46,682 nucleotides of DNA, taken from positions 1-46,682 of the forward strand of contig JAUNIV010000001.1 in NCBI GenBank assembly GCA_030523385.1. The letters are read 5' to 3'. Under the pieces are notes generated by a model. That model did not search any database, had not been told where the DNA came from, and worked only from the letters and a program-made list of their open reading frames with translations. Shown piece after piece: positions 17,143 to 46,301 of the stretch. The position numbers and the translations under genes were made by a program. Positions within the stretch are counted from its first letter, which is position 1; each line of letters opens with the position of its first letter. This DNA comes from Bacteroidales bacterium (lineage in GTDB: Bacteria; Bacteroidota; Bacteroidia; Bacteroidales; Bacteroidaceae).

Positions 17143-18405
17143 TTATTCGTTATCCTGTATATCTATGACCTTGCGAGGGTGCGTGTTGGTCGCTGCCGTT
17201 CGCTTGGTTCGTGGAATCTTCTTGTTCTCGGTGTGTGGCTTGCGACTCCTGAATACCGTCTTGGTATTGGAGATAGCCTTGACCTTTTCCTCAGTCAGCA
17301 CGTCTGCATAGACTGCGGTTGATTTGAGCGACTTGTGACCCATGAGTTTCTTGGTGGTCTCGATGTCACCAGTAGCCGCTTGGATCAATGTGCCAAAGGT
17401 ATGTCGGGAGGTATGGAAGGAGATTGTCTTCGTGATACCTACCTTCTTGGCTATTCGTTTGAGAGCTGCATCCACATTGGCATGGGCAGGAAGGTGGAAA
17501 ACCTTGTCATCCTTCTTGGGTGGCATCCATGCTTCTGCGGTTGAGCAGATTGGGACGGCATTGAGTTCCTTGGTCTTCTTCTGGACGATTACAAGTGTGT
17601 TCGTTACCTCGTTCCTCATGATGTTTGACCATCGCAAAGCCCTTATGTCGCTGATGCGTAGTCCTGTAAGGCAAGCGAAGCCAAATGCCAACTGGGTTTC
17701 CCTGACTCCGTTAGTCTCTTCGGATGCCATGAAGAGTTTGAGTTCATCGGGTGTAAGGTACAGCTTGTGACCAGACTTTGGCTTGGAGATTGTGTCTTCC
17801 TTCTCCAACTGATAGAAGGGGTTTGCCTTCAACTTGCCAGTCTTGACTGCCTTGTTGAATACTGCGACAATGCGTTGCTGCATGTTCCGCAAACTGGCAT
17901 TACTCAACGGCTTTGCCTTGACTCTCACATACTTCTGAGGTACATAGTCATTCTTCAGCCAAAGAAAGAATGCCTTGAACCATGTCTTATCGAACTTCAT
18001 CAGAGTGATGTGCGGTCTGCGTTTGGCTTTCAGAAACTCCTTCATGCGTTCTTGAAGGTATTGAGTCTGCTCGACAGTCCTCTTGGAATATTCGGGATTG
18101 CCGTCCATCCACTCCATGTAAGTCTGGATCCAGTCAATGACTTCGGGTGAGTCATCGTTGGGAATGTCGGGTACAACCATCAAGTGACCTTTCTCGGGAA
18201 TGGTCTCGGGATGAAGGACGCGCTCGGCACGAATCTCCTGCGCACGTTTCAAGGTAGCCTCGTTGCGTTCCTTTGTCTCTTGGTTAATCTCAGGGATTAG
18301 GTAGAGGGAAAGGAACTCAAACTTGCGCTTGCCATTCTCATAGATGTCAAGATACAGGCTCTTGTTGTCGTTTTCAAGGTCTTTTTGTCGAAGTGTGATG
18401 GTCAT
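17143..18405 (-). CDS. Tyrosine integrase (Arm-DNA-bind/SAM/catalytic)
   Basis: 420 aa with SLYLDIY, GLRISD, HTSRHTF, MGH and AVYA. Confidence 0.9.
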   Translation of the reverse strand: MTITLRQKDLENDNKSLYLDIYENGKRKFEFLSLYLIPEINQETKERNEATLKRAQEIRAERVLHPETIPEKGHLMVVPDIPNDDSPEVIDWIQTYMEWMDGNPEYSKRTVEQTQYLQERMKEFLKAKRRPHITLMKFDKTWFKAFFLWLKNDYVPQKYVRVKAKPLSNASLRNMQQRIVAVFNKAVKTGKLKANPFYQLEKEDTISKPKSGHKLYLTPDELKLFMASEETNGVRETQLAFGFACLTGLRISDIRALRWSNIMRNEVTNTLVIVQKKTKELNAVPICSTAEAWMPPKKDDKVFHLPAHANVDAALKRIAKKVGITKTISFHTSRHTFGTLIQAATGDIETTKKLMGHKSLKSTAVYADVLTEEKVKAISNTKTVFRSRKPHTENKKIPRTKRTAATNTHPRKVIDIQDNE

Positions 18406-18529
18406 ATCAATGATTGTTATAATTGGTTATACCACTGGGGTGAAACACCACCCTGGTTTATCAAAGGGGGTGATTTCAAGTCACCTCCCTTAACTCTTTG
18501 AAGGGGGGGGTACTTTCAAAGTACATCCT

Positions 18530-19702
18530 TTACTTGAACATTCCATCAATGAGGTTGATGGCTTCCTCCTTCTTCTTATCTACGATTTTCGCATAGATTT
18601 CAGTGGTCTGAATGTTGGTGTGACCCATCAACTTGCTTGTGGTGAACAGGTCTGCGCCAAGTGTCAGCATCATTGTGCCGAAGGTGTGACGTGAACAGTG
18701 GAAACTGATGTGCTTCTCTACACCTGCTGCCTCTGCCCATTTGCGAAGGGCTCTGCCTATGACGGTCTGAGTAGTTGGTATATCAAAGAAGGGAGTTGTT
18801 ATTCCCTTTGGTTTTGGTAACCAACGCTTTGCCTCTTCAGAGAGTGGGATGATGACAGGCTTCTCCGTCTTCTGCATTTCCATGTCAATATACTCGCCCT
18901 TGCCGTCAGGAGTCTTGAAAATGTGAATCGGTGCAAGTTTGTACATATCACTGAGTCGCAATCCAGTGAAACAAGCAAAGATGAAGGCTTGCTTGACCTC
19001 TGGGCGGTAACTGTCGGTTGCCATGAGGGCTTTAAGTTCCTCAATGGTAAGGTATTCCTTCTTGCCATCCTTTGGCTGAATGCGCTCCTTGGCATCCAGT
19101 TCCTTCATTGGATTGTTTCGGATAATACCTTGACGGACAGCATTGTTGAGAGTAGTCGAGAACATGCCGAGGTAACGGCTTGCCGTGTTCTGGCTGATAG
19201 GTCTTGGCTCAATGTACTTGCAGTGTGAGTTTGGGAAGGTGCGAAGGAACTTCACATACCCACGGCAGAAATCAGCATTGACCTCTTCAAGGGTGATGAA
19301 GGTCTGATTGGACTCTTCAAGATATTTCTCCACGGTGTGAAGCATTTCAACACGACAATGGAGGGTTGACTTCTTGGTGCTGACTCCACCTTCACAATAC
19401 TTCTTGATCCATCCTGTCAAGAGTTGTGAACCCTGCTTGACGGTTTCCCAGTCTTGCACTCCGTGACCATGGAGAGCCTTGATGCGCTCTGCCTTGATAC
19501 GTTCTGCGAGTGCCATCGTTTCCTTGTTCTGCTCCTTGCAGAGTGGATTGACCTCAGGAATGATATAGAGTTTCAGATACTCATACTTTCTGACTCCCTT
19601 CCAGTAGATGTCAAGATAGATACTCTTGTTGCCATCTGCGAGAGGTTTGAGACGAATCTTAATCGGCTCCTTCAGTTTGACTTGTTTCTTTGGTCTTGCC
19701 AT
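18530..19702 (-). CDS. Tyrosine integrase
   Basis: 390 aa with SIYLDIY, GLRLSD, HCSRHTF and MGH..TEIYAK. Adjacent to the right end of the element. Confidence 0.92.
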   Translation of the reverse strand: MARPKKQVKLKEPIKIRLKPLADGNKSIYLDIYWKGVRKYEYLKLYIIPEVNPLCKEQNKETMALAERIKAERIKALHGHGVQDWETVKQGSQLLTGWIKKYCEGGVSTKKSTLHCRVEMLHTVEKYLEESNQTFITLEEVNADFCRGYVKFLRTFPNSHCKYIEPRPISQNTASRYLGMFSTTLNNAVRQGIIRNNPMKELDAKERIQPKDGKKEYLTIEELKALMATDSYRPEVKQAFIFACFTGLRLSDMYKLAPIHIFKTPDGKGEYIDMEMQKTEKPVIIPLSEEAKRWLPKPKGITTPFFDIPTTQTVIGRALRKWAEAAGVEKHISFHCSRHTFGTMMLTLGADLFTTSKLMGHTNIQTTEIYAKIVDKKKEEAINLIDGMFK

Positions 19703-21672: not shown

Positions 21673-23607
21673 ATGGTTATCACACGTGAACAACGCTTAG
21701 AAATATACAAGGCAATAAATGCATTAGGAAATATCTGGGGACAAACCGGCAACCTTAACAGTGTGCAATTCCTGAATAGAATTTGGGATTTGCGGCTAAT
21801 GTCATCTTCTGACCCTCGGTTCAAAACTGCAGCAGAAGATGCAAAGAAGCATCTTATAGATAATGATGATTGGGATGACGATTATGTGTTTCTTGATAGA
21901 TTCAAACTTCTTGATTGTAGTGAAGAAGAATTCCTCAAATTTATCAATGTTGTCATAAGTCCAGAAGTCAGAGGTGATGAGAAAGAAGTAGAAAAATACA
22001 TTTCTGTCATAGAATCATTATTGCCCAAAGAATATGAGATAATAGAAACGATAGACAAGAATGGGCAAACCATTCATTCTGCTTTAATGAAAAGCAAAGA
22101 TGATAGTGAATATGAACAGTATCCTATTGGATTAAGTCCAAATGATATATTGTTTTTCACCAATGTAGAACCTACAAAATATCCAGCTTTTCAAATTGAA
22201 ACTGATAATTGGGATGATTTTGGATATAAAACTACGTCAAAATTATACTATTGGGATAACAACGCCCAATGCAACCCCATTGACAAACTAAAAATTCTCA
22301 ACTCAGAGGAAGACAATACAAGTAAGGTATTGCCCGAATCGTTCATGTCATTAGGTGCGACATTCTGCAGTTTAGGCCAGAGTGAACATTATTATAGAAA
22401 ACTAAAGCAATTACTTCCTGACAAATATCAATCAGTATTATACGCATTAAAAGATACTGCTTGGTTTTCTGAAATACAATATCGTTTTGAAAATCATCAA
22501 GGTTTTAAGAGATCTCTTTTAAGGGAAATATCTACAGAGGCACTTTTATCAAGTGTCAGACGGAAAGTTGAGAGAGGGGAAAATGATTCTTGGGATTTTA
22601 TGTTCAAAACCCAAGTTCCATACTCCGAACAACCTATTGATATAAACTTTGAATTTGGCGATCTTGAAGATGTTGACAATCCGAAACGTATAAAAGCATT
22701 GATTGGTGCCAATGGTTCAGGTAAGACTTCAATTCTAAAGGCTCTCGTGAAAAGTCTTATTCGCAACGAAGGTGATTTTTACCCATCCCATCCTGTCTTT
22801 TCAAAAGTAATCGCCATATCATTCAGCATTTTTGATACATTTATATCTCTTAGAGGAAAGTCTGTTCTTACTTATACATACTGCGGGCTTCATGATAAAG
22901 AAAATACTGTCATGTCCGTAGAGGATCGTGAAGCGCGATTAATAGAATCATTGATTTGGATTAATGGTGGTAATGAGGGGAAAGGATTTGGCAATACACG
23001 ATTAATAAGACTATTTTGCAAAGGCCTTGAAATCGTCTTTCCAAAGGACTGGGTTGATTCAGTATGGACAGATGACGGTTTAGCCATAAGCGCAATATTA
23101 GAGAAATCTCGAACTATGAGCACAGGAGAAGCGATGATTCTCAATCTGATTGCTTCGTTGTATGCTAATATACGCCAAAACTCGCTTATTGTTTTTGATG
23201 AAATGGAAGTACACCTTCATCCTAAAGCAATTCGCCAAATGATGTCCCTCCTTTTCAAAATTACAAGGGAGTTTAATTCCGCTTGTATATTAGCAACTCA
23301 TTCTTCTATTGTAGTTCAAGAGCTGTTGGCTGACAATGTCACGATTATTGATAAACTTCAAGATGGAACCCCAGAACTACGTATTCTAAATCATGAATCA
23401 TTAGCCGAAAATCTTTCGGTGATAAGTGATGAAATTTTTGGGGAGTCTTCTATTTCTCCTCATTACAAGGCCTTTATCCGAACAAAGGCTCATGATTCTG
23501 ATACTTTGGAGGTATTGTTGAAACAACTTTCATCACGAAAATTACCGCCAAGTTTAGCTCTTTATATGCAGGCTCGATATGAATTTGAAAACAAAAAGAA
23601 ACAATGA
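21673..23607 (+). CDS. ABC/AAA_21-type ATPase with N-terminal AbiJ-NTD3-like domain (Septu PtuA-like)
   Basis: N-domain FLNRIWDL..S.DPRF..NDDWDDDYVF; Walker A GANGSGKT; signature MSTGE; Walker B IVFDEMEVHLHP; H-loop ATHS. Confidence 0.8.
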   Translation: MVITREQRLEIYKAINALGNIWGQTGNLNSVQFLNRIWDLRLMSSSDPRFKTAAEDAKKHLIDNDDWDDDYVFLDRFKLLDCSEEEFLKFINVVISPEVRGDEKEVEKYISVIESLLPKEYEIIETIDKNGQTIHSALMKSKDDSEYEQYPIGLSPNDILFFTNVEPTKYPAFQIETDNWDDFGYKTTSKLYYWDNNAQCNPIDKLKILNSEEDNTSKVLPESFMSLGATFCSLGQSEHYYRKLKQLLPDKYQSVLYALKDTAWFSEIQYRFENHQGFKRSLLREISTEALLSSVRRKVERGENDSWDFMFKTQVPYSEQPIDINFEFGDLEDVDNPKRIKALIGANGSGKTSILKALVKSLIRNEGDFYPSHPVFSKVIAISFSIFDTFISLRGKSVLTYTYCGLHDKENTVMSVEDREARLIESLIWINGGNEGKGFGNTRLIRLFCKGLEIVFPKDWVDSVWTDDGLAISAILEKSRTMSTGEAMILNLIASLYANIRQNSLIVFDEMEVHLHPKAIRQMMSLLFKITREFNSACILATHSSIVVQELLADNVTIIDKLQDGTPELRILNHESLAENLSVISDEIFGESSISPHYKAFIRTKAHDSDTLEVLLKQLSSRKLPPSLALYMQARYEFENKKKQ

Positions 23608-24458
23608 TTAGGTATCCTTTATATCAATCCATCAATGATGATAATACACCATTTGATGAGTATAAAACTGCGGCACAAGGGGATGCTATCCTTGGTGCTA
23701 TTGAAACGCAGATGGAAAGCTGCTATAATGATTATGACAATGCTGTCATCAGTGCTTCTGTCCATAATCTGAATCCTCATGGCTTTATCACTCCAGAAAA
23801 GGACAATCTAAAAAAATTATACAAGAGTGATTGTGATATAGCCAAGAAAATACGACAACATCATAACAGATTTACCAGTACTACAAGACGGGTTTATAAT
23901 AACAAATGTCCGTATTGCACATTATCAGAACCATCTACAATAGAACATATTCTTCCAAAAGAAAAATATCCGGAATATGCAGTTCATTTATATAATTTAA
24001 TACCCTGTTGTTCTAAATGCAATAGTCATAAAGGTGAAGCTGTCAAGGACTCATCTGGATTCCCTTATACCATAAACTTTTACTATCACGATCCTGAAAA
24101 TTGTGAATTTTTAGAAGCCGATTGTACGATTGATTCTAATGGATATCCCTCCTTTACATACATACTCACATTTCCCCCAAACGCAGATCCAGCATTGGTT
24201 GCAATAATAACCAACCATTTTAACAGGCTTCATTTGATTGAACGATATAATGAGGAAGTTGTAAAGAGTTATGCCGAAATGGAATTACTAATAAAAACAA
24301 TCTGTTGCGGGAAATCCTTAAGTGATACATTGCAATTCCTTCATGATTACCTTTCTCGTACAATACATGATTATGGATTAAACCATTATTTTGTTGCGAT
24401 GTTAAGATGTCTGATAAGTTCATCAACATATCATACCTATTTACAATCAATTTTATAG
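23604..24458 (+). CDS. HNH endonuclease (PtuB-like)
   Basis: CPYC..EHILPKEKYP..NLIPCCSKCNSHK, with a 4-nt overlap with the ATPase. Confidence 0.85.
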   Translation: MIRYPLYQSINDDNTPFDEYKTAAQGDAILGAIETQMESCYNDYDNAVISASVHNLNPHGFITPEKDNLKKLYKSDCDIAKKIRQHHNRFTSTTRRVYNNKCPYCTLSEPSTIEHILPKEKYPEYAVHLYNLIPCCSKCNSHKGEAVKDSSGFPYTINFYYHDPENCEFLEADCTIDSNGYPSFTYILTFPPNADPALVAIITNHFNRLHLIERYNEEVVKSYAEMELLIKTICCGKSLSDTLQFLHDYLSRTIHDYGLNHYFVAMLRCLISSSTYHTYLQSIL

Positions 24459-24538
24459 AAACAATGAATCACCTGCTTCTATGCAAAATTATTGGAGGTG
24501 TTTATCAATAATATTTACGTAAAACGAAACATTATAAA

Positions 24539-25294
24539 ATGGGTACAAAAATCAATAACCTACGCCAGCAAATACCATCGAATGGGATAATGCTCACTTC
24601 ATGGCTGGAGAAATCAGGCTTCAACAGAAATGAAGTTTATGATTATATGGAATCGGGATGGCTACAACGCATATCTACAGGTGTATATCAATTCACCGGG
24701 GATACCCCTACACTTTATGGTATATTAGCTTCATATCAAAAACAGATCGGGCTGAAATATCATATCGGAGCCGCGTCTGCGTTGGAACTGAAAGGTTTCT
24801 CTCATTACATTGCGATGGGGAAGCCGACTGCCGTCGTTTTTTCTCCGGTACGACCGCCGCTTCCCAAATGGTTAAACGATGCCGACCTTGATATGAATCT
24901 TGCGGAAGTGGCGACCAAAGTGTTGGGGACCATCGGTATCGAACAAATGGATTACCAGGAACAGACATTGACAGTCTCATCACCTGAAAGGGCAATAATG
25001 GAATGTGTTCTCCTTTCACCTTCCCGTTATGATTTAATGGATGTGTATTATCTTATGGAAATGCTTACATCCCTTAGATCCGCCCTTATACAACAACTAC
25101 TGGAAAACTGCACTTCAGTGAAAGTAAAGCGGATGTTTCTGTATATGGCGGAAAAGGCACATCATCGCTGGTTCGCCAAACTTGACCTTTCCAAAATATC
25201 TCTCGGTTCTGGCACACGGAGTTTTGCAAAAGGCGGTGTAAAAGTCAATACATACGATATTGTAATACCCAAAGAACTTGCTGATTATGAATAA
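24539..25294 (+). CDS. abiEi: Type IV TA antitoxin AbiEi
   Basis: SGWLQRISTGVY, ALELKGFSHY, SSPERAIME and LLENCTSVKVKRMFLYMAE motifs. Confidence 0.85.
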   Translation: MGTKINNLRQQIPSNGIMLTSWLEKSGFNRNEVYDYMESGWLQRISTGVYQFTGDTPTLYGILASYQKQIGLKYHIGAASALELKGFSHYIAMGKPTAVVFSPVRPPLPKWLNDADLDMNLAEVATKVLGTIGIEQMDYQEQTLTVSSPERAIMECVLLSPSRYDLMDVYYLMEMLTSLRSALIQQLLENCTSVKVKRMFLYMAEKAHHRWFAKLDLSKISLGSGTRSFAKGGVKVNTYDIVIPKELADYE

Positions 25295-26192
25295 TATATA
25301 TAGACAAAAAGTCGAACTCCTTTTGAGAATTCTACCGTTTGTAACGGATGAAGAATGTTTCGCTATACATGGTGGTACAGCCATTAATCTGTTTGTGAAA
25401 GACTTATACCGTCTTTCGGTTGATATAGACGTAACTTATATTCCTATTGAAGACAGAAATACAAGTCTTCTGCGGATAAATGAGGCTCTTGAGAGAATAA
25501 GCGATAGGGTCAAACGCACATTCCGGGATGTAAGGGTTATCCCACGTCTTGATATCAGTAAAATCACTTGTGAAAGCCGGGGATGCCAAGTGAAGATTGA
25601 AGTAAACCAGACAAAACGCGGACTTGTCTGCGGTGATGCAATACTGTATCCTTTGTGTGAAAAAGCGCAAGAAATGTTCGGAATGGAAGTAGATGCAAGA
25701 ATAGTGTCGCTACCTCAGCTTTATGGTGGTAAAATTTCAGCAGCCCTGTCACGCCAACATCCCCGCGACCTTTTTGACATAAAACAGATGGACATTCCAT
25801 TGACAGACGTAAAAGAAGGACTGATATTCTGTCTGCTTGGAAGCGACCGTCCTATACACGAGTCGTTTGCGCCCAATCTTATCGATCAGCACGAAGCAAT
25901 GGAGCGTCAATTTTCCGGCATGAGTGAAATACCTTTCACCTACAATGACTTTGAAGCGACAAGAGAGAAACTTGTCAACGATGTCAATTCTGTGATGACG
26001 GAAGATGATAGGCGATTTCTTATAGGCTTTGAAGAGCTTTCCGTTGATTGGGAGAATTCTCCGTATTCATCTTTTAAGGAATATCCTTCGGTAAGATGGA
26101 AGATGCAGAATTTGCAGAAGCTGAAAGCATCAAACCCGAAAAAGTTGAATGCAGAAGCTGACAAACTCAGAAACATATTCGGAATGGAATGA
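25287..26192 (+). CDS. abiEii: Type IV TA nucleotidyltransferase toxin AbiEii
   Basis: GGTAINLF..RLSVDID and GGKISAALSRQHPRDLFD. The ATG at 25287 overlaps the abiEi stop. Confidence 0.88.
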   Translation: MNNIYRQKVELLLRILPFVTDEECFAIHGGTAINLFVKDLYRLSVDIDVTYIPIEDRNTSLLRINEALERISDRVKRTFRDVRVIPRLDISKITCESRGCQVKIEVNQTKRGLVCGDAILYPLCEKAQEMFGMEVDARIVSLPQLYGGKISAALSRQHPRDLFDIKQMDIPLTDVKEGLIFCLLGSDRPIHESFAPNLIDQHEAMERQFSGMSEIPFTYNDFEATREKLVNDVNSVMTEDDRRFLIGFEELSVDWENSPYSSFKEYPSVRWKMQNLQKLKASNPKKLNAEADKLRNIFGME

Positions 26193-36579: not shown

Positions 36580-37725
36580 CTATTCAAAGACGCCATCGAA
36601 CAAAGAAACCGCCTCGTCTTTCTTTGTGTTGATAATCCGGGCATAACGCTGGGTGTGGCGAATGGTGGTGTGCCCGAGCAGCTGGCTGGTCGTATAAATG
36701 TCTATACCCGCAGTAAGACAGAGTGTTGCGAAGCTGTGCCTCCCCGCGTGAAAAGTGATGTCCTTTGTGATTCCGGCGTTCTTCATCCATGTGCCGAGAG
36801 TCTGACCGTAACTCCTTGTCAGCCGGGGGAACACCTTGTCTTCCGCCGTGGCATCCTCCGGTTGCTCGGGCAACCATTTTCGGGCATTCATGTTCAACGG
36901 CAGGAACAGTTCGACACCGGTCTTGTATTGGATAATCTCGACTTGCCAATGGGTTGCGGTCTTCACTATGTCTTTCCAACGGAGGCTCATGATGTCATAG
37001 ATGCGGAGTCCGCTGAAGCAGGAGAACAAGAACGCACCCTTGATGTCCTCTCTGTGACATGGGGTAGCGATAAGCCGTTTGATTTCCTCGACCGTCAAAT
37101 ACTCACGCTTATGCTCTTTGATGGATAGCGAAGCTCTGGTTATTCCCTTGAACGGGCTTTTAGGTATCACGCTTTCACGTACTGCGTAATTCAAAGCCGC
37201 CCTGACATAGCCTAAGTATAGGAACACCGTGCTTTTCGTTATTTTTTTCCGATCCGTATTAAGAGCGGAACGGCTGGCAAGGTGTTCCATAAAGCCCGTA
37301 ATGAATTCCTTATCCACATCGCCAAGTGTGATTTCGGAATCATAACTGGCAACTTCTTCTACAGAACGGTCAAGCCATCTCTTCGATGATTCTGCACAGC
37401 TTTTCTTTGCGTTCTCGGCATAGATTCCCATCCATGAACAGAACGGCATCCTGGCTTTATGAGACTTATCTTTTATGCCTGCAATACGGTTAGTAAGGTC
37501 AAGTATCATTTCTTCCTTGATGGCATTGGCCTGTGCAAGGGTGTTGGCGTTCATGATCTTTGACGACATGTCTGTCTCAGGCACAAGATACAGCTTGAGA
37601 AACTTGTACGTTCGCTTCCCATTATGGTATATATCCAAATATAATGAGCGGTTGCCGTTTTTCAACACCTGCTCGCGGAGCCTTATTGGTTCCTTCATTA
37701 CTACTTGTTTCTTCGGTCTGCCCAT
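36580..37725 (-). CDS. Tyrosine integrase (ICE, second of a tandem pair)
   Basis: SLYLDIY, GLRIYD, HAGRHSF and LGH..QRYA. Confidence 0.92.
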   Translation of the reverse strand: MGRPKKQVVMKEPIRLREQVLKNGNRSLYLDIYHNGKRTYKFLKLYLVPETDMSSKIMNANTLAQANAIKEEMILDLTNRIAGIKDKSHKARMPFCSWMGIYAENAKKSCAESSKRWLDRSVEEVASYDSEITLGDVDKEFITGFMEHLASRSALNTDRKKITKSTVFLYLGYVRAALNYAVRESVIPKSPFKGITRASLSIKEHKREYLTVEEIKRLIATPCHREDIKGAFLFSCFSGLRIYDIMSLRWKDIVKTATHWQVEIIQYKTGVELFLPLNMNARKWLPEQPEDATAEDKVFPRLTRSYGQTLGTWMKNAGITKDITFHAGRHSFATLCLTAGIDIYTTSQLLGHTTIRHTQRYARIINTKKDEAVSLFDGVFE

Positions 37726-37731
37726 TGTCTT

Positions 37732-38862
37732 TTAATCGAATAGTTTGTCAATCATGTAAACCGCATCCACTTTCTTCTTGTCGATAATTTTAGCATATGC
37801 TTGGGTCGTTTCCACATCCGAGTGTCCCAACAACTGGCTTGTGGTATAAAGGTCCGCACCCATAGTCAATGTCATCGTTGCAAAAGCGTGGCGGCTCACG
37901 TGATAGGACACCCGTTTGGTAATACCTGCTTTTGATGTCCATGTCTTCAATACGTGGTCACAATCACTTAATGTGGGGACGTCGAAGACGGAATCGTCTG
38001 GATTTCCTTTTTCTTCCGGCATGAATTTCTGTGCCTGTTGGCTCAAAGGTAGGTAGATAACCTTCCCTGTCTTTTGCTGGCGCAGTTCTAGATGGACTTT
38101 GCCGTTATCTTCGATTACGTCTTTCCAGCGTAATCCTTTGACATCACTGTAACGCAATCCACAAAAACATGAAAACAAAAACGCGGTCTTTACTCTTGGG
38201 CTTCTACATGGAGTATTGATAAGCGTTTGTACCTCTTCGATGGTGAGATACTCACGCTTTCTACATTCACCTTGTATTGATGCCCAGTCAAATGAAAGCA
38301 GCGGATTGTCACCAAGGATTTCCAAGTCCACGGCATAATTAAGAGCGGCACGTATGTATCCGCAATAACCGGCTATTGTCTTTTTCGCCAACGGCTTTTG
38401 CGTTGTTCTTGCCTTACGGGTTTCCAAATACTCTATGAATCCCTGCAAGAAATCCTTGTCAACCTCGTAGAGCTTTATACGAGGATTATGAACCTTCAGG
38501 CAAACCGACACGGCGTGTACATGATTAACAAGGGAACTGCGTCCTTTTTTTCTTCCAAATTCAGCATATTCATTGAGCCAGTCGATAAGCGGCATTTTGG
38601 CTTTGTCCGAAAGAGCCGTCATTGGCTTCTTGTTGGTAATGTCAAGAATACGCTGTGCTTTGATGGCATTGGCAGCTTTGAGCGTATTGGCATTTCTCTC
38701 CTTTGCCTCCTGCGATATTTCAGGGACAAGGAAGAGTTTGAGAAATTCATACCTCCGTTTACGGTCGGTATAAATATCTAAATAGATAGACTGGTTACCG
38801 TCCTTAAGCTGCTTGAAGCGGATGCGGACAGGTACCGATTCGGACTTTTTTGTTCTTGCCAT
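37732..38862 (-). CDS. Tyrosine integrase (ICE, terminal)
   Basis: Start MARTKK at 38862, downstream of a TACCTTTG -7 element at 38888-38895. Motifs GLRYSD, HVSRHAF and LGH..QAYAK. Confidence 0.92.
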   Translation of the reverse strand: MARTKKSESVPVRIRFKQLKDGNQSIYLDIYTDRKRRYEFLKLFLVPEISQEAKERNANTLKAANAIKAQRILDITNKKPMTALSDKAKMPLIDWLNEYAEFGRKKGRSSLVNHVHAVSVCLKVHNPRIKLYEVDKDFLQGFIEYLETRKARTTQKPLAKKTIAGYCGYIRAALNYAVDLEILGDNPLLSFDWASIQGECRKREYLTIEEVQTLINTPCRSPRVKTAFLFSCFCGLRYSDVKGLRWKDVIEDNGKVHLELRQQKTGKVIYLPLSQQAQKFMPEEKGNPDDSVFDVPTLSDCDHVLKTWTSKAGITKRVSYHVSRHAFATMTLTMGADLYTTSQLLGHSDVETTQAYAKIIDKKKVDAVYMIDKLFD

Positions 38863-39020
38863 TAATTGCCAATGCTTTATTCGTGTGCAAAGGTACAAAA
38901 AATAGCTCAAAATGACTAACAAAAAAGTAACATAATTGACCGAAATAACAAAAAATAGCCATCCCTCCTTTAGAAACAAAGCAAAAACAGACATCAGCAA
39001 ACCATTGTAAATAAAGGATT

Positions 39021-39230: not shown

Positions 39231-39655
39231 AAATGTTTTGTTTCAATATTTTATGAGTATGAAATAAGTTTTGTAACCTTTTCTATCACCAAATAAATGC
39301 GTTCGCACCAATATATTTGTAAACATGCCTCTTCAAAATCATTGAAAAAGAAGACCATTCAAACTATCTCATATATTTAAGGAAGTATTCCCTAAAACGA
39401 TAAAAAACATAAGACACGGCAAGTAATAAAATTGCATGAAGAAATACAAAAGCTACAGTTGTTCCCGTCACAATCCCATTTCCCGCTGTTTTGGTGCAAT
39501 AAAAAAAGACATATGTACAGGCATGGCATCAGGCTTGTACACATAGAAGAAAACAACAGACAATTGGAGCTGTTTCTATAAATATCTTATCCCGAACCCG
39601 CGTATTTATGCAATCAACATCTAAGAAGTAACCACTATAAAAACATTTTTTCAAA

Positions 39656-42600
39656 TCAATCCAACATTATAAATGCCGCCCAAAGGAATGGGTCTGGATA
39701 TTTACTGCGGACTATGGACTTTGTTTGTTCAAAAGCCTTGTGCTTGTCCCAGTCGCACTCTTTAGATGAAAGTTGCTCATAGAATGTCACCATGAAGTCG
39801 GTCGTCACTTTATCGCTGACACTCCATAATGCCATGACAATAGTGCCTACACCTGCTTTCTTGAAAGCACGCTGCAAGCCATATAAGCCTTCAGAGGTTG
39901 CCTTACCCTGACCAGATTGACAAGCTGAAAGAACCACCAAATCCGTAGTACTCAAATCCAAACGTGCGATGTTATTGGCCGTAAGGATTCCGCCAAGCAC
40001 ACCTTCAGGCAGAGGTTTACCCAGCCATGCCGTATTGCCGCCACTTAGTACAAGACCGGAAAGCAACATGGCATCGGTATATCCTCTCAAATAGTCCACG
40101 TCATTTGCACGGTCTGGCGTATAATAGAATCCATGCGTGGCAATCTGCAATATCTTCGGAGAATTGCCGTGCATGCTCAGGAAAGACTCTTCCGTACCCT
40201 CCATGTCCATACGTGGAGTGACCTGCCATTGTTTTGCCTTCAAAATGCCTTCAATCTTAATGATTTCCTCTTTTGAGCCAGGTAGTTCATGGAAGACTGA
40301 ATCGCCTCGTACCATGTCTCCACGCATCACCATCAGGTCTGATAAATCATATTTCTTCGCCTCACACACCATCGTTGTAGGTTGCAGGTCATATTTTAAA
40401 CCACCATATAATACTGCCGTTTGAGGCTTGGCAGCTAATGCCTCACTACGTTTCTTTAAAAGTTCGCGTGCCGAAGACAATCTCACAAAGTTGTAATGAT
40501 CGCCTAACAAAGAGCCATCTGAGAGCGGTAATGATTCCAGTGATACTTGGAACAACAGTTGTGACGGCACATAATAAATGGTTGACCCTTCCGCAACATG
40601 TTCTTTCAACGGGTCCCATAACAATTTCAGTATCTCTGGTGCATAATCTTCATCGTAATACATATCTGGACGAACTATACCCAATGAGTCTATCTGGTTT
40701 TCTGCAAAAAGTGTCTTAAGCAATGGATATTCATCCGTCTTGTTTATTATATAGGCGGCATACCTGCGTCCCTTTGTCTTGGAAACAAAGTCCGTAAAGT
40801 CTATCAGTACTTCATTTGGTTTCATTGCCTGCTTGATGGCATTGTAGTCAACATCCATAAATCCAGTGATACTGCCAAAACTGCGACAACGCTCAGACAG
40901 GCGTGTAGCGATGCGGTCTGCCCGTTGCGACATGCTCAATATGCTGTCTGCATGATGCTGGTAATCCTTTTCCCATTCCTTTATTTGGTTCTTCATCAAT
41001 GACAGCCGCATATAGTCGCGCATATCCTCTTCAGAGCCCTCCTTCTTTACCACATCTACCAATGACCGTTCTGATTCAAGCAGGAAAGCCTTTGACATTA
41101 CAAGTGCGTCATAGCAACTCTGTGTAAACTGTGTCTGGTAGAGTTTTGCCTGCAGTGCATATGGCGTCATATTCATAAAGAACGATGATACAGGGTTCCA
41201 AAAACTTGTCCTTTCTTCAGCGTTCATGTAGGGGACACGTTCCTTTATCAAATTTTTCAACCTCGTTGTTGCCTGCATATAGTTCTTACATCCCTCATCA
41301 ATATGCCCTGCAAATCCATTGGCATTGGCAAGGTAGTTCAAGGAATTGATATATTCCATGCTACTTTCGCCATATATATTACGAATATTCTCCGCATACT
41401 GTTTGTAGTGTTGTTCCATCTCAACATAACGTCCAAGTTGATATTCCATGCCGCCTTTCAACGCCAATAAAGACGTTCTGTCACCATCTAATATGCTATA
41501 TTGTATGCCCAACATTTCGTCTGCCTTTTGATAATCCTTTAATGCGGCTGCATAATTATTGAACGCAGCATGACAACGAGCACGTGTCACATAATAATTA
41601 CAAAGTTCTTTCGTCTCGGTAATCTTTTCCGCTCCTTTGAATAGTGAATCAATACAGGCAAAGCAATTCGTCTTGTCATCTTTTAACCTATAGATATCTG
41701 CCAGCGGCATATATGGCATACTATATCCTGCGGCATCTGCACTATAGTTGGACTGATACTCGACAAGGGCTTTTTCCCCGTATTCCAAAGCGTGGTCATA
41801 ATCTCCGTTTGCTATATACAGACTGCGAAGCTTTGCGTATATAACATATCTGTTTATTTGGTTTGTACCTACATTTACCCTTTCAGCAATACTCTTCCCT
41901 CTCATATACCACTCTTCAGCCAACTTATACAAGCCCGTTTCTTTTGCCTCGTCTCCTTTCTGTAGATAGTAGTCATATCTGGTTTTCTCATCTCCTGCCG
42001 CTTCAACTAACGAATCCATAGATGCTGTGCAAAAACGGACTATTTTCATATCTCCTGTAGAAGTTCCAAATGACCATAATGACTTTAATATGTCCATCTG
42101 GTCTGACACTTTCCCGTTTTTCTTTGCCAATGTCAGAGCCTGTACATATGCCTCTTTACACCCCGTGAAATCATAGAGATAGTTCTTGACTGATGCAATT
42201 GCCTTCAGTACGGATATCTTATATGAATCGATGCCTATTTTACGGAAACCCTCCAATGCCTGCTGATAGCAGTTCAAAGCCTCTTCAAATCTCTGTGAAG
42301 AGAAACAATCAACACCTTCAATATAAAATGACTGATACAGTCGGGGATAGACATATTGAGCCAACTTCTCATCTGCATACGGTTCTATCTCATACAGAAT
42401 ATCTCTTCCCAGTCTATAATCATTTTTCTTTTCCCAATTTGGTTTGATTAGTCCTTTTGCATACAGATATCCATTTGTGACATATAGCTTGGCAATATCC
42501 TTTTTTTCGACATCGTTAATATTTCCTTGTATCAGTTTCTTTGCCAGTAGATATGCATCTTTGTGTCGTTTAAGATTTTCAAGGCATTTGCATGCCATTG

Positions 42601-42823
42601 TCTGACTGCATACATACACTTGTCTCTCCGCTTCTGTCCTCTGTAGTTCTGTGTTCTTTCCCACAACCAGAAAAGCGTCAAGGGCCTCTGCCTGTCTGTT
42701 GGCTTTGTTAAGTTCAAAAGCCAAGTTCATTTTCTCAACTACTTCGGCTTCGGAAAGGGATTGGGCATTCATCTGCATTTGGAAGCACAACAGTGCGATG
42801 CATATCAATAGTTTCTTATTCAT
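39656..42823 (-). CDS. Exported TPR-CHAT protease (clan CD)
   Basis: 1055 aa with a signal peptide, a long TPR-like helical region, an intact CHAT dyad (ILQIATHGF and LVVLSACQSG), and GLQRAFKKAG..ALWSVSD..PFLWAAF. Confidence 0.92.
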   Translation of the reverse strand: MNKKLLICIALLCFQMQMNAQSLSEAEVVEKMNLAFELNKANRQAEALDAFLVVGKNTELQRTEAERQVYVCSQTMACKCLENLKRHKDAYLLAKKLIQGNINDVEKKDIAKLYVTNGYLYAKGLIKPNWEKKNDYRLGRDILYEIEPYADEKLAQYVYPRLYQSFYIEGVDCFSSQRFEEALNCYQQALEGFRKIGIDSYKISVLKAIASVKNYLYDFTGCKEAYVQALTLAKKNGKVSDQMDILKSLWSFGTSTGDMKIVRFCTASMDSLVEAAGDEKTRYDYYLQKGDEAKETGLYKLAEEWYMRGKSIAERVNVGTNQINRYVIYAKLRSLYIANGDYDHALEYGEKALVEYQSNYSADAAGYSMPYMPLADIYRLKDDKTNCFACIDSLFKGAEKITETKELCNYYVTRARCHAAFNNYAAALKDYQKADEMLGIQYSILDGDRTSLLALKGGMEYQLGRYVEMEQHYKQYAENIRNIYGESSMEYINSLNYLANANGFAGHIDEGCKNYMQATTRLKNLIKERVPYMNAEERTSFWNPVSSFFMNMTPYALQAKLYQTQFTQSCYDALVMSKAFLLESERSLVDVVKKEGSEEDMRDYMRLSLMKNQIKEWEKDYQHHADSILSMSQRADRIATRLSERCRSFGSITGFMDVDYNAIKQAMKPNEVLIDFTDFVSKTKGRRYAAYIINKTDEYPLLKTLFAENQIDSLGIVRPDMYYDEDYAPEILKLLWDPLKEHVAEGSTIYYVPSQLLFQVSLESLPLSDGSLLGDHYNFVRLSSARELLKKRSEALAAKPQTAVLYGGLKYDLQPTTMVCEAKKYDLSDLMVMRGDMVRGDSVFHELPGSKEEIIKIEGILKAKQWQVTPRMDMEGTEESFLSMHGNSPKILQIATHGFYYTPDRANDVDYLRGYTDAMLLSGLVLSGGNTAWLGKPLPEGVLGGILTANNIARLDLSTTDLVVLSACQSGQGKATSEGLYGLQRAFKKAGVGTIVMALWSVSDKVTTDFMVTFYEQLSSKECDWDKHKAFEQTKSIVRSKYPDPFLWAAFIMLD

Positions 42824-43412
42824 CAGCGGAGTCCTTTCTGTCTATGTTTGAGTAAATTGTGTCATTCTCAATTGTGTCTGCTGGTGTTGCACCAACTTCG
42901 TCATAGATTTCATCATCACCACGAACATTATCCTTGGGTCTTCCCGTAAAGCTTGGAAAAGAGTTGTTGTTACCCCCATCAAAGATGCCGTCATTGCCAC
43001 GTATCTGCTCCATTGGATTGCTATTGGAGGCATCATTCACGAACATCGGGTGTATGGCAAAGAAGCCTACTACAAGCACAGCTGCCACACCTGAAATCCA
43101 CAGCCATATTTTCTTTTTTGACCGCCCTGGCCTTTCTGCCTCCATTGGAGCCGAACAATAACATGCTGCATCAGTACCGGTTGAACGCATTGCTTTGGCT
43201 CTCCGTTCCTCTTCATACTGTTGCTGGGACTGGGTCAATGCCTGTAGTTTCTCCTCACGGCTGCGGATGGAGTCTTTCACATTCTGTGTAAACTCCAGTT
43301 GTTCCTTCTTCTCATTATCTTGTTCTACCTCACGCAAGAACATTGTCTTTTCGGAATCATTCATGCGGTTAAGCAGGTAGTTGTCTATTCTGTCTTGAAA
43401 CTTTTCGTCCAT
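42816..43412 (-). CDS. Putative single-TM anti-sigma factor
   Basis: N-terminal anti-sigma-like DRIDNYLLNRMNDSEK..F, TM segment IWLWISGVAAVLVVGFFAI and a short acidic outer tail. Follows the ECF sigma gene. Confidence 0.75.
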   Translation of the reverse strand: MDEKFQDRIDNYLLNRMNDSEKTMFLREVEQDNEKKEQLEFTQNVKDSIRSREEKLQALTQSQQQYEEERRAKAMRSTGTDAACYCSAPMEAERPGRSKKKIWLWISGVAAVLVVGFFAIHPMFVNDASNSNPMEQIRGNDGIFDGGNNNSFPSFTGRPKDNVRGDDEIYDEVGATPADTIENDTIYSNIDRKDSADE

Positions 43413-43424
43413 ATCTGTTGTCTT

Positions 43425-44087
43425 TTATGAATTCAGCTTTCTCATATAGATTTCTCTCGCAGACTTGCGCAAAGCGTTCAAACACTTGTTCTTTTTTGTC
43501 TTTAGAGCATCATAAGACGCTATTGTCGGCATTTCTTCAAGTATAACCTCCAGTTTCTTCTCCTCGTAATAGAATTTGGTAAGTATTTGGCTGCACCGTG
43601 GTGACATGTGGGATATGACATCGGCTATTATTTCGAGCATCATGTTCTCACCCGAATCATATAGCATATCAATGTACTCATTGGGATTGAATCCTTCTTC
43701 TCTTATTAAACGCCCCAATTCTGTCTCAGGATCTGCGTAGACAGGATGTTCCCGTCCATATTCCAGATATTTGTTTCGGGCAATGCTCATAAAGTAGGTG
43801 AGGATGCTGCCGCTTAGGGGCTTGTTGTCTTTCCCCATCACGACACCATCCTCCACATATATCTTTTTTCTTTCGATATTCTCCCAAAACGCTATGAACG
43901 TATTTTGTAGAATCTCTGCTGCCGCCTTCTCGTCTGCAAAGAACACACCCCTGTAGTTATCCCAAAAGTAGTCGGCGCAGTATGCGTATAGCTCATACTG
44001 CGTTAGCCGCCTTTTGTCTGCGATACCCGCTACAAGACGTGCTTCATTCTCTTGTATGGGTGCCCGGAATTGTATTGTTTTTGCCAT
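43425..44087 (-). CDS. ECF-type RNA polymerase sigma factor
   Basis: Region 2 AAEILQNTFIAFW..LTYFMSIARNKY and region 4 MSPRCSQILTKFYYEEK..KTKKNKCLNALRK. Confidence 0.85.
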   Translation of the reverse strand: MAKTIQFRAPIQENEARLVAGIADKRRLTQYELYAYCADYFWDNYRGVFFADEKAAAEILQNTFIAFWENIERKKIYVEDGVVMGKDNKPLSGSILTYFMSIARNKYLEYGREHPVYADPETELGRLIREEGFNPNEYIDMLYDSGENMMLEIIADVISHMSPRCSQILTKFYYEEKKLEVILEEMPTIASYDALKTKKNKCLNALRKSAREIYMRKLNS

Positions 44088-44977
44088 TATCGTATGATGT
44101 CTGTTATGTTATATCTGTTAGTCTCACCGGTAAGGACAGGACGTTGTGGCCTGCTACCGGTATTCTTGTTCATGAACATCCTGAGTTGCCGCATGAAACT
44201 GTTATTGTCCCCATTCGGTATTTCCCGTATCTTTTTGTATAAAGCGTATGTCAATTTTCCAGCGACAGGATTTCTCATCTCTATGTTGACCTGATTGCTT
44301 TCACAGGCACTTAATGTAATCCACCTCTCTGCATTAGGCTTCGCATCAGGATTAGCCACATCATCCTTTTTCTCCTCACCTCTGAAGAATGCCATGACAG
44401 CTTCAAATATGTCTGTTACACCACGAACCACCTCTTCCTCATTTCCGCGTGTGCCGTCTCCGCTATGACAAGCGTCGATTACAACAAGAATCTTGCCACT
44501 GTCACCCACCTTGTTACGGATATTGTTCAGGTATTTGTTTACCTCATCATCCGTGAGATGCTTCTCGCCCCTGTCTTTAGCACATGGGCTACGGTAAGCA
44601 TCGTAAGGAATCCAGCATTCGTCCAAACCATCTGACTCGTCATTATGAACATCTCTCATCTGCTGACCGTGTCCAGAATAATGAACATATACAATATCGC
44701 CTGTCTTGCACGATTTCGCCAACCTATTGAATGCATTGACAATTTTTGCTTTGGTTGCCTGTTCATCTTTCAGCTTAACGATAGACGTAAATCCTGAATT
44801 GTCCAGCATTTCCAGCACATAGGGCATATCCTTGTCCCCGTTAATTTTCGCCCATGCCTTATCCTCTTGCTGCCCTAAACAAATCACAAGTGCCCTTTTT
44901 GTCTGTGCTTGCATAGCCAGAGACAAAAAGAGCACCATTGTCAGTGCTGGTAATATTCTTAACAGATTATTCATCAC
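44087..44977 (-). CDS. Exported caspase-family (peptidase C14, meta/orthocaspase-like) protease
   Basis: Signal peptide, KRALVI, intact dyad VHYSGHG and VIDACHSG, LTDDE, and LSAC..GKLTYAL..QRP. Confidence 0.9.
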   Translation of the reverse strand: MMNNLLRILPALTMVLFLSLAMQAQTKRALVICLGQQEDKAWAKINGDKDMPYVLEMLDNSGFTSIVKLKDEQATKAKIVNAFNRLAKSCKTGDIVYVHYSGHGQQMRDVHNDESDGLDECWIPYDAYRSPCAKDRGEKHLTDDEVNKYLNNIRNKVGDSGKILVVIDACHSGDGTRGNEEEVVRGVTDIFEAVMAFFRGEEKKDDVANPDAKPNAERWITLSACESNQVNIEMRNPVAGKLTYALYKKIREIPNGDNNSFMRQLRMFMNKNTGSRPQRPVLTGETNRYNITDIIR

Positions 44978-44992
44978 ATAATCACCATTTAT

Positions 44993-45268
44993 TTAGTAAT
45001 GTGTCCTATATGCATGTCCGCAGTTACGGCAAGTCTCACCGCGTCCTTCGAACTCTTTACATTTACAACCACTTTGCCCACAGCGTCCAAATCCTTGTGT
45101 GTCACCACGAGCCACTTCCGTTGTATCAGTTCCTAAACTGTCTTCGGCAACAGATTCTTCCATTTGCACTTCCTCTTCCTGTGCCTTGTCTGGTGTCTTA
45201 CTGTTACCACATGCAATAAACATCGAAGCGCAATATGCGATAACAAATGTTCTCTTTATCTTCTTCAT
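44993..45268 (-). CDS. Small lipoprotein with acidic linker and C-terminal Cys/His cluster
   Basis: Lipobox FIAC, and C-x4-C-x-C-x9-C-x2-C-G-H-x4-H at the C-terminus. Confidence 0.8.
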   Translation of the reverse strand: MKKIKRTFVIAYCASMFIACGNSKTPDKAQEEEVQMEESVAEDSLGTDTTEVARGDTQGFGRCGQSGCKCKEFEGRGETCRNCGHAYRTHY

Positions 45269-45275
45269 TGTCTTT

Positions 45276-45300
45276 TACCCTCGTTCGTGTCGGGCACAAC
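45276..45300 (-). repeat. Conserved gene-proximal repeat, copy 1
   Basis: TACCCT-cgtt-CGTGTCGGGCACAAC (+ strand), 22/25 identical to 46053-46077. Confidence 0.8.
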
Positions 45301-45371
45301 TTCTAATAGGCTTGCCCTATTTTATAAACACCAAATCCCCAAGTTCTGCATCGGGAATTTTTTGATTAGAA

Positions 45372-46044: not shown

Positions 46045-46052
46045 ACACCAAA

Positions 46053-46077
46053 TACCCTAATCCGTGTCGGGCACAAC
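46053..46077 (-). repeat. Conserved gene-proximal repeat, copy 2
   Basis: TACCCT-aatc-CGTGTCGGGCACAAC (+ strand). Confidence 0.8.
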
Positions 46078-46301
46078 CATTAAAATTAAATATATCTTTT
46101 ATGCACACAGACAACTAAAGGTAACCCTTTCTCCTCGTTTATATTTATATACGGGGCTAAGTCTGAGCAATTTTAATCGTCCAATTGAACACCGATTATG
46201 TATTTCTATCACTTATTCAACATTCCAGTAATAAGACTATCTTTTGGACGTCTGATTTTGTTGTTTACTAAAAACAACCGCCATAGCGGTTGAAATATTT
46301 A

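What the first reader, a model, noticed from the sequence alone, without database searches (positions are those of the whole stretch)
44993..45268. Lipoprotein built like a propeptide carrying a releasable Cys/His-rich mini-domain
Seen: lipobox, then a ~30-aa acidic disordered spacer ending in EVAR, then GDTQGFGRCGQSGCKCKEFEGRGETCRNCGHAYRTHY (37 aa, 5 Cys, 2 His). Inference: cleavage at R|G would free a small metal-binding or disulfide peptide. It could be the ligand for the TPR-CHAT, an inhibitor, or a secreted effector or signal.
Basis: partly seen in the sequence, partly recalled or inferred. Interest (0 to 1): 0.7.

Follow-up and report, generated by a model that had tools for sequence, protein, structure and literature searches.

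The report
Protease-released zinc mini-domain lipoprotein
A small bacterial gene encodes a predicted membrane-anchored protein with a predicted two-zinc mini-domain behind an arginine-glycine tag; the neighbouring caspase-like proteases and likely anti-sigma factor carry the same tag, so the mini-domain is likely cut loose when this untested protease switch fires.

Summary
In detail: a 91-aa gene on the minus strand with lipobox Cys20, an acidic low-confidence linker, R54-G55 and a 37-aa tail with 5 Cys and 2 His. The tail belongs to an unnamed, patchily spread bacterial family. All seven residues are invariant in 72 aligned homologues, and the only structural match among 48,161 chains is the Zn2Cys5His2 region of GCN5 PCAF_N (weak, Z 3.1). 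It is more likely a zinc knuckle than a disulfide peptide. R54 is kept in 27 of 28 lipoprotein-clade sequences, in an otherwise divergent linker. The same hydrophobic-x-R-G tag recurs in the co-operonic caspase (24 of 24 covering), anti-sigma-like protein (17 of 18) and TPR-CHAT loop. Ten of 12 lipoprotein loci lie near a caspase or CHAT gene; 0 of 7 distant loci do. Best reading: a co-substrate of a periplasmic Arg-specific protease switch, released as a soluble zinc domain. It is optional cargo (absent from 20 of 20 other caspase loci), so it is unlikely to be the CHAT ligand. Cleavage, zinc binding and function are untested. The scan noted similar CHAT/anti-sigma arginine modules on other DNA, but not this domain.

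The parts
44993..45268 (-). Gene for the 91-aa lipoprotein (P0001)
45209..45268 (-). Signal peptide (res 1-19) and lipobox Cys20; no acidic lipoprotein export signal at +2..+6, so likely periplasm-facing
   Evidence: sequence; Cys20 conserved; export-signal consensus from PMC5080379
45107..45208 (-). Acidic low-confidence linker, res 21-54, ending in E-V-A-R54
45104..45109 (-). R54|G55, predicted cleavage site
   Evidence: R in 27 of 28 lipoprotein-clade sequences; same tag in partner proteins
44996..45106 (-). 37-aa mini-domain, C63-x4-C68-x-C70-x2-F-x6-C80-x2-C83-x-H85-x4-H90, predicted Zn2Cys5His2 knuckle; second R76-G77 in its loop
45274..45305 (-). Conserved leader element with a covarying 7-bp hairpin ending 2 nt before residue 1's codon region (core 45286-45299)
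44087..44977 (-). Exported C14 caspase-like protease (296 aa): H103/C170 dyad, invariant D50 and D168, R185-G186 in the loop after the catalytic Cys
43425..44087 (-). ECF-type sigma factor (220 aa; below family cut-offs)
   Evidence: Sigma70_r2 E 0.0018; TIGR02985 E 1.3e-8
42816..43412 (-). Single-pass membrane anti-sigma-like protein (198 aa) with R138-G139 and R164-G165 after the membrane segment
   Evidence: (weak); role inferred from position and topology
39656..42823 (-). Exported TPR-CHAT protease (1055 aa): H897/C968 dyad, R834-G and R839-G in a loop
45583..46044 (-). 153-aa lipoprotein upstream, preceded by a second copy of the leader element (core 46063-46076)

Best explanation
The gene encodes a predicted periplasm-facing lipoprotein whose acidic linker ends in a conserved Arg-Gly tag in front of a predicted two-zinc (Zn2Cys5His2) mini-domain, and it is likely cut at R54|G55 by the likely Arg-specific caspase-family protease(s) of its own operon, which would free the mini-domain as a soluble output of the switch. 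Shown here: the anatomy; invariance of the seven ligands; conservation of R54; the same tag in the caspase loop, in the anti-sigma-like protein outside the membrane and in a CHAT loop; intact catalytic dyads; operon linkage. Inferred: (1) TPR-CHAT senses an envelope signal and activates the caspase by cutting its R185|G186 loop; (2) the active protease clips the anti-sigma at its R|G as a site-1 cut, so that the ECF sigma is freed; (3) the same activity clips this lipoprotein, giving a 37-aa zinc domain like the signal-peptidase-released forms of other family members; (4) the domain acts as a small binding module on an unknown periplasmic target. It is accessory cargo, not the trigger.
For: R54 in 27 of 28 hand-picked lipoprotein-clade sequences, the only column at 90% or more between Cys20 and G59. 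It is absent in all 10 Bacteroidales forms with an ordinary signal peptide (9 'other/noRG' plus P0006, which my script misflagged as lipoprotein). A regex built from these tags hits 24 of 28 lipobox-flagged homologues (hand count) but only 8 of 157 lipoprotein-like ORFs of the own genome. Caspase R185-G186: 24 of 24 sequences covering it, with D50, H103, D168, C170 in 25 of 25; two caspases carry E-V-A-R-G, the lipoprotein's own tag. Anti-sigma: R[GS] tag within 45 aa after the membrane in 17 of 18; CHAT R834 in 19 of 24, R839 in 13 of 24; tag density 3.8, 3.9 and 1.3 per 1000 aa in caspase, anti-sigma and CHAT against 0.36 in the cytoplasmic sigma. Caspase folds with metacaspases and MALT1, which cut after Arg/Lys using acidic pocket residues (PMC8283722, passages). 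Linkage: 10 of 12 lipoprotein loci hold a caspase or CHAT gene, 7 as next neighbour, while 35 of 300 family genomes have such a caspase anywhere. Precedents: CHAT activates a caspase that cuts a sigma factor and an inhibitor (bioRxiv 2023.06.23.546230, passages); Arg cleavage of lipoprotein precursors in Porphyromonas (PMC5954841, passages). Fold: 7BY1 residues 83-153 is the only chain of 48,161 with Z>=2; that region is Zn2Cys5His2 with ligands in the same order (PMC8586995, passages); Atlas structure rows name PCAF_N, basonuclin-2 and ZF-HD, all under its naming bar.
Against: No cleavage, zinc binding or expression was measured. The lipoprotein-plus-RG state may have a single origin (tree), so the counts are not independent events, and the tag regex was derived from these sequences. 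My control for the anti-sigma tag (45 aa before the membrane) also hit 7 of 18. The structural match is weak (Z 3.1, rmsd 4.4; Foldseek E 4.9), and the last His is spaced x4 here against x3 in PCAF_N. Two lipoprotein homologues lack a clean R-G (L008 has R-E, L017 no Arg); both lie at contig ends, so their linkage cannot be judged. The genome also has a clostripain-family (C11) protease gene that could cut the same site. Linked loci differ in which protease they keep (L013 caspase only, L016 CHAT only), so the cutter cannot be assigned. How a Sec-exported domain would load zinc in the periplasm is unexplained.
Confidence: 0.5

Rival explanations
1. Decoy substrate or feedback inhibitor: the lipoprotein's tag, or the second R76-G77 held in the loop of the zinc knuckle, occupies the protease active site and sets the threshold of the switch, as PCi does for PCaspase.
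For: First gene of the operon. Tag identical to that of two homologous caspases. R-G in the domain loop in 40 of 42 Bacteroidales-clade sequences against 3 of 115 distant ones (the Arg was part of my clade definition, so this is partly circular). PCi is both cut by and inhibits PCaspase.
Against: Absent from 20 of 20 other caspase loci and found in only 1 of 300 family genomes as a real hit, so the proteases do not need it. Signal-peptide forms mostly unlinked to the proteases keep the loop R-G too.
Confidence: 0.17
2. The R-G site is cut constitutively by a housekeeping Arg-specific protease (clostripain or gingipain type), as in type V pilin lipoproteins, and the gene merely travels in the same cargo island as the protease module.
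For: Known Bacteroidales route. A C11 protease gene lies elsewhere in the genome. Some unrelated lipoproteins of the genome carry T/S-R-S/G tags. The islands are dense arrays of secreted-protein genes sharing a leader element.
Against: That route acts on surface-exposed lipoproteins, and this one lacks an export signal. Direct adjacency to a caspase or CHAT gene in 7 of 12 loci, in four different gene orders. Forms without the tag are mostly not adjacent.
Confidence: 0.13
3. No cleavage: the protein works as a tethered zinc or redox sensor, or metal buffer, and the R-G is a binding or docking motif.
For: Seven invariant metal ligands. No direct evidence of processing. L008 and L017 lack the clean tag.
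Against: The tag sits where caspase-family enzymes are cut (loop after the catalytic Cys; the linker cleavage of type II metacaspases is recalled, not from a call) and where a site-1 cut on an anti-sigma is expected. Free mature forms exist in the family.
Confidence: 0.13
4. One reading: the released peptide is the signal sensed by the TPR-CHAT (a self-made peptide loop).
For: Next to the CHAT gene in L004, L014, L015 and L016. The DdvA TPR-CHAT is proposed to sense a protein signal.
Against: 13 of 20 caspase-selected loci carry CHAT and none carries this gene. L013 has the gene with no CHAT within 10 kb. Distant homologues have no CHAT nearby (0 of 7).
Confidence: 0.07

Closest known systems
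Zn region of the GCN5/PCAF PCAF_N domain (PDB 7BY1; PMC8586995, passages read)
   Same: Five Cys and two His in the order C-C-C-aromatic...C-C-H-H; only chain with Z>=2 in the wide structural search; Atlas structure rows also list PCAF_N and basonuclin-2 clusters.
   Different: Here the knuckle is the whole mature unit, bacterial and exported; the middle loop is 6 aa instead of 23; last His at x4 instead of x3; no PCAF_N Pfam hit; no helical E3 scaffold.
SAVED-CHAT / PCaspase / PCc-sigma / PCi of Haliangium ochraceum (bioRxiv 10.1101/2023.06.23.546230, passages read)
   Same: CHAT protease, C14 caspase and sigma factor in one operon, with a small extra protein that could be substrate or inhibitor.
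   Different: Here both proteases have signal peptides, the sensor is TPR not SAVED, there is a membrane anti-sigma-like protein, no CRISPR or cyclase gene was seen among the window's ORFs, and PCi is described as CI-2-like, not a Cys/His domain.
DdvA/DdvS of Myxococcus xanthus (PMC11506125, passages read)
   Same: Periplasmic TPR-CHAT with a His-Cys dyad, membrane anti-sigma and ECF sigma; site-1 cleavage by CHAT is proposed there.
   Different: Split here into separate TPR-CHAT and anti-sigma genes, with an added caspase and the zinc mini-domain lipoprotein; no zinc anti-sigma domain.
Type V pilin lipoprotein precursors (Mfa1, FimA; PMC5954841, passages read)
   Same: Signal peptidase II lipoprotein released from its anchor by a cut after Arg.
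   Different: Those are surface-exported, cut by gingipain and polymerise; here the product would be a 4-kDa domain and no export signal is present.
DUF6422 (PF19986)
   Same: Weak hits in 8 of 72 family members (best E 0.012) and an Atlas structure row.
   Different: No hit for this protein; far from significance; function unknown.

Membership tests
PCAF_N-type Zn2Cys5His2 knuckle | Five Cys and two His in the order C-xn-C-x-C-x2-aromatic-xn-C-x2-C-x-H-x3/4-H | tested here: met
   Invariant in 72 of 72, 156 of 157 with the full motif; ligand list in PMC8586995; last spacing x4 against x3
PCAF_N-type Zn2Cys5His2 knuckle | Same fold | tested here: inconclusive
   Z 3.1, rmsd 4.4, 44 aligned, sole hit with Z>=2 of 48,161; Foldseek E 4.9; Atlas rows under the naming bar
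PCAF_N-type Zn2Cys5His2 knuckle | Binds two zinc ions | not testable with these tools
   Needs ICP-MS or a structure
PCAF_N domain (PF06466) | Pfam hit and the helical regions after the Zn region | tested here: not met
   No Pfam family for P0001; protein ends at the last His; not listed among hits for 72 members (first 25 of 37 families shown)
Lipoprotein (signal peptidase II substrate) | Basic N-region, hydrophobic core, lipobox Cys | tested here: met
   Sequence; Cys20 conserved at 90% or more; lipidation itself not measured
Surface-exposed Bacteroidota lipoprotein / type V pilin-like precursor | Acidic export signal at +2..+6 | tested here: not met
   G-N-S-K-T here, at most one acidic residue in the aligned homologues against the consensus in PMC5080379
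Surface-exposed Bacteroidota lipoprotein / type V pilin-like precursor | Conserved Arg at the end of the propeptide | tested here: met
   R54 in 27 of 28; the cut itself is untested
SAVED-CHAT/PCaspase cascade | CHAT and C14 caspase with intact dyads plus a sigma factor in one operon | tested here: met
SAVED-CHAT/PCaspase cascade | SAVED sensor domain on the CHAT protein | tested here: not met
   Pfam shows TPR and CHAT only
SAVED-CHAT/PCaspase cascade | CHAT cleaves and activates the caspase | not testable with these tools
   Inferred from the invariant R185-G186
DdvA/DdvS | TPR-CHAT fused to a membrane anti-sigma with a zinc anti-sigma domain | tested here: not met
   Separate genes; no zinc anti-sigma hit on the 198-aa protein
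DUF6422 (PF19986) | Score over the gathering cut-off | tested here: not met
   No hit for P0001; best E 0.012 among 72 members

The most novel reading that the evidence does not exclude
Gut-type Bacteroidales carry a periplasmic initiator-executioner caspase cascade (TPR-CHAT, then C14 caspase) that reads one shared Arg-Gly tag on all its targets. It frees an ECF sigma factor and at the same moment releases a membrane-tethered, minimal PCAF_N-type zinc knuckle as a processed messenger or effector, much as animal caspases mature cytokines. The knuckle is the founding member of an unnamed bacterial family of exported binuclear zinc mini-proteins.
Probability: 0.2. Interest if true: 0.85.

Novelty: new variant of a known kind. 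Interest (0 to 1): 0.62.

Why it matters
It supplies a concrete, small, testable substrate and a predicted cut site for exported bacterial caspase-family proteases, whose periplasmic substrates are so far only proposed (DdvA). It also points to a stand-alone bacterial version of a binuclear zinc fold described from eukaryotic GCN5/PCAF, with no family in Pfam, NCBIfam or PHROGs for this protein. One peptide assay (R54 against R54A, with each protease) would test the whole shared-tag model.

Tried and rejected
Family libraries: no Pfam, PHROGs or significant NCBIfam family for P0001. PDB by sequence: only chance L32/Trm112 zinc-ribbon hits, E>=0.038. Complex prediction of residues 45-91 with the CHAT C-terminal part, the caspase and two zinc ions: no answer (score 0.00, controls not folded); not used either way. 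Sequencing runs: none was listed. Longer or fused forms: none at E<=0.01 among 7,989 candidates, weak evidence. Not found in viral contigs, phages or plasmids (queried with a cyanobacterial homologue). Genome samples with the profile: family 2 of 300, of which G281 matches only the leader part and was rejected; order 1 of 301; phylum 3 of 401, each counting the own genome; phylum of the Nostoc genome 4 of 151; phylum of the Acidimicrobiaceae genome 0 of 121. Loci L012 and L023 were chance matches and were dropped; L022 showed no intact motif; the second own-genome hit (C441, E 0.014, stop inside) was rejected. Disulfide peptide: disfavoured by the odd Cys count, invariant His pair and 83 of 115 distant homologues without a hydrophobic leader. 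RiPP precursor: no modifying-enzyme cluster was apparent from the ORF lists of the loci read (by eye, not scanned). Leader element as an ECF -35/-10 promoter: the upstream CATAAA-like word is in 13 of 30 copies at variable distance, so not supported. Rfam: no family at the element. A second Atlas look-up did not complete. The primary PCAF_N structure paper was not held; a review was read instead. Literature: ten searches listed no paper on this domain or on this Bacteroidales module. The ECF re-classification paper has no 'CHAT' or 'caspase' in its main text; its supplementary group tables were not read and may describe the module. The 'CHAT' hit in PMC13472631 was an author name.

Full report
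1. Observation. The coordinates hold a 91-aa ORF on the minus strand. It has a basic N-region, a hydrophobic core and lipobox Cys20; a 34-aa spacer with 10 acidic residues ending in E-V-A-R54; and a 37-aa tail with 5 Cys and 2 His. AlphaFold2 on a 72-row alignment gives pLDDT 54-61 for residues 21-60 and 88-93 for 61-91.

2. Surroundings. Downstream on the same strand, with gaps of 15 bp or less, lie a C14 caspase (Pfam E 1e-20), an ECF-type sigma factor (TIGR02985 E 1.3e-8, below cut-off), a 198-aa single-pass membrane protein (anti-sigma-like by position and topology; library hits are weak) and a 1055-aa TPR-CHAT (CHAT E 1.6e-45). Both proteases begin with signal-peptide-like leaders (read from the sequence) and keep their His-Cys dyads. 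Two tyrosine integrases follow, and the rest of the window has conjugative-element-like ORFs (by eye). The named homologous loci are from Muribaculaceae, Bacteroidaceae and other Bacteroidales. This is the only CHAT gene found in the 79%-complete own genome.

3. The tail is a family. phmmer over 1.84 billion representatives gave 69 hits at E<=1e-3, nearly all proteins of 49-167 aa ending in the same domain; one 614-aa chance hit was dropped. A profile search listed 90 proteins (partly overlapping). C63, C68, C70, C80, N82, C83, H85 and H90 are invariant in 72 of 72, and 156 of 157 distinct sequences have the full Cys5His2 motif. Leaders vary: lipoprotein, ordinary signal peptide, Tat-like RR leaders ending A-x-A directly before the domain (14 of 115 distant sequences), or none (83 of 115 without a hydrophobic leader). 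So the bare domain of about 33 aa is a natural unit, and many copies stay in the cytoplasm, which favours metal over disulfides. The family is rare and patchy: the own genome is the only real hit among 300 family and 301 order genomes; 3 of 401 in the phylum; 4 of 151 in the phylum of the Nostoc genome. It has no Pfam, NCBIfam or PHROGs family; DUF6422 is a weak lead.

4. Fold. Foldseek found nothing at E<=1e-3; 7BY1 (GCN5 PCAF_N) was row 7, E 4.9. The wide search aligned 48,161 chains and only 7BY1 chain B reached Z>=2 (Z 3.1, rmsd 4.4, chain residues 83-153). That stretch is the Zn region, whose two zinc ions are bound by Cys107, 113, 115, 142, 145, His147 and His151, with a conserved Trp118 (PMC8586995, passages). 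The order and most spacings match C63, C68, C70, F73, C80, C83, H85, H90. The Atlas structure search lists PCAF_N, basonuclin-2 and ZF-HD clusters, all under its naming bar. Each line is weak; together with the motif I put a binuclear zinc knuckle at about 0.75 (inference).

5. The Arg-Gly tag. In 28 lipoprotein-clade sequences that I picked (fragments and duplicates left out), R54 is present in 27 and is the only column at 90% or more between Cys20 and G59, although the linker varies widely in length. The ten Bacteroidales forms with an ordinary signal peptide lack it. A regex built from these tags hits 24 of 28 lipobox-flagged homologues (hand count) and 8 of 157 lipoprotein-like ORFs of the own genome (that set missed the gene itself). 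The partners carry the same tag. Caspase: R185-G186 in 24 of 24 sequences that cover it (25 aligned), 15 residues after the catalytic Cys, next to a low-confidence stretch of the model; two homologues read E-V-A-R-G like the lipoprotein. Anti-sigma: 17 of 18 within 45 aa after the membrane, against 7 of 18 in the control segment before it. CHAT: R834 in 19 and R839 in 13 of 24. Density per 1000 aa is 3.8, 3.9 and 1.3, against 0.36 in the cytoplasmic sigma factor. The caspase resembles metacaspases and MALT1 and keeps D50 and D168 in 25 of 25; related enzymes cut after Arg or Lys through acidic pocket residues (PMC8283722, passages). That D50 and D168 form the pocket is my inference from motif position.

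6. Linkage. Of 12 lipoprotein-type loci (window, L004-L008, L013-L017, L019), 10 hold a caspase or CHAT gene; in 7 it is the next gene, in four gene orders. The two others end at contig edges, and these are also the two without a clean R-G. Of 4 intact signal-peptide-type loci, one has CHAT 1.1 kb away and one a weak caspase-like hit 9.8 kb away. Of 7 distant loci (three are the same Nostoc locus), none has either. Conversely, 35 of 300 family genomes have the caspase, and none of 20 caspase-selected loci holds this gene, though 17 have the sigma factor and 13 a CHAT. The gene needs the module more than the module needs the gene. The tree does not exclude one origin of the lipoprotein form, so these counts are not independent.

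7. Mechanism. Most likely the protein is a tethered pro-form facing the periplasm: residues +2 to +6 lack the acidic export signal of PMC5080379. When the switch fires, TPR-CHAT would activate the caspase at its loop, as SAVED-CHAT activates PCaspase. An Arg-specific cut would strip the anti-sigma's outer part, as proposed for DdvA, and the same activity would free the 37-aa zinc domain. Anatomy, conservation and linkage are shown; every cut, the zinc and the action of the product are inferred. I give 0.5 to release by the operon's own proteases, 0.17 to decoy or inhibitor, 0.13 to housekeeping processing like type V pilins (a C11 gene exists), 0.13 to no cleavage and 0.07 to the ligand idea. 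The complex prediction returned no answer and is not used.

8. A shared leader. The gene and the upstream 153-aa lipoprotein are each preceded by the same 14-base core. All 30 regex hits in the loci scanned lie 15-22 nt before an ATG. The element folds into a 7-bp stem with a 10-12 nt conserved loop; the variable pair reads C:G 26, G:C 2, A:T 2, T:G 1, so 31 of 31 stay paired. The pattern is in 40 of 300 family genomes against 2 for the reversed control; 34 of 36 further copies precede an ATG, mostly of secreted-looking proteins (by eye), including other Cys/His-rich mini-proteins. No Rfam family matches. It precedes this gene in 8 loci and marks it as one of a co-regulated or co-mobilised set; its function is open.

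9. Comparison and novelty. The operon works like a periplasmic blend of the PCaspase cascade and DdvA/DdvS but is a member of neither (no SAVED; split anti-sigma and CHAT). The domain resembles the PCAF_N zinc region but is not a PCAF_N domain. Ten literature searches listed nothing on this domain or module; subscription papers and the ECF classification supplements were not seen. Earlier notes of this scan describe similar CHAT/anti-sigma modules with a conserved arginine on other DNA; none came up for this protein, the leader or the zinc domain. Verdict: real, new variant of a known kind, interest 0.62.

Noticed in passing
window 45274-45305 and about 46050-46082 (- strand); L004, L006, L007, L009, L013-L017, L064-L134 (many): Undescribed leader element with a covarying 7-bp hairpin and conserved loop at a fixed 15-22 nt before start codons of secreted-protein genes in Bacteroidales islands; 40 of 300 family genomes, no Rfam match. 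Could be a cis-regulatory RNA, a processing site or a recombination mark.
   Followed up: partly
L005 9683-9967; L006 9021-9311 and 15577-15972; L007 17905-18195; L013 13127-13393; L106 700-954; L129 1530-1790: Two further families of small exported Cys5His2 proteins with longer loops in the same islands (profile comparison: probability 79%, E 1.5e-5 for the L007 type; 2% for the L006 type). The L006 15577 copy has a membrane anchor and E-V-S-F-R-G before its domain, a possible second tethered pro-form.
   Followed up: partly
P0022, P0072, P0147; window anti-sigma residues 152-157: Some homologues have a long acidic N-terminus ending in an S/T-F-[TS]-G motif right at the domain start, and a similar P-S-F-T-G lies in the anti-sigma-like protein: possibly a second processing motif.
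   Followed up: no
P0020: A 167-aa protein with three tandem copies of the mini-domain.
   Followed up: no
L005, L006, L007, L019, L020, L021: A second, different ECF-like sigma factor gene often lies within a few kb of the mini-domain gene, in L020 and L021 with its own small anti-sigma-like partner.
   Followed up: no
L005 3-8742, L007 2306-9286, L009 946-8610: The islands carry eukaryote-like signalling genes by eye: a GTPase-like protein, Sel1 repeats, FHA, PP2C-like phosphatase and Ser/Thr kinase.
   Followed up: no
L010 9895-10110: The Nostoc copy of the mini-domain gene is broken by stops and frameshifts.
   Followed up: partly
L032 8077-8298 and 8398-12021: A cyanobacterial mini-domain gene lies divergent to a 1207-aa protein that looks by eye like an HTH-NTPase-repeat (STAND-type) protein.
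   Followed up: no
window 36580-39000, 17143-19702, 12738-13976, 5247-7814, 21673-26192: The module sits on a probable integrative element: several tyrosine integrases, a relaxase-like and a TraG-like ORF, and an ATPase/HNH-like pair plus an AbiE-like pair that may be defence genes (the last four by eye only).
   Followed up: no
window 39240-39278: Weak Rfam hit to CRISPR-DR31 (E 0.14, below gathering score), probably chance.
   Followed up: no
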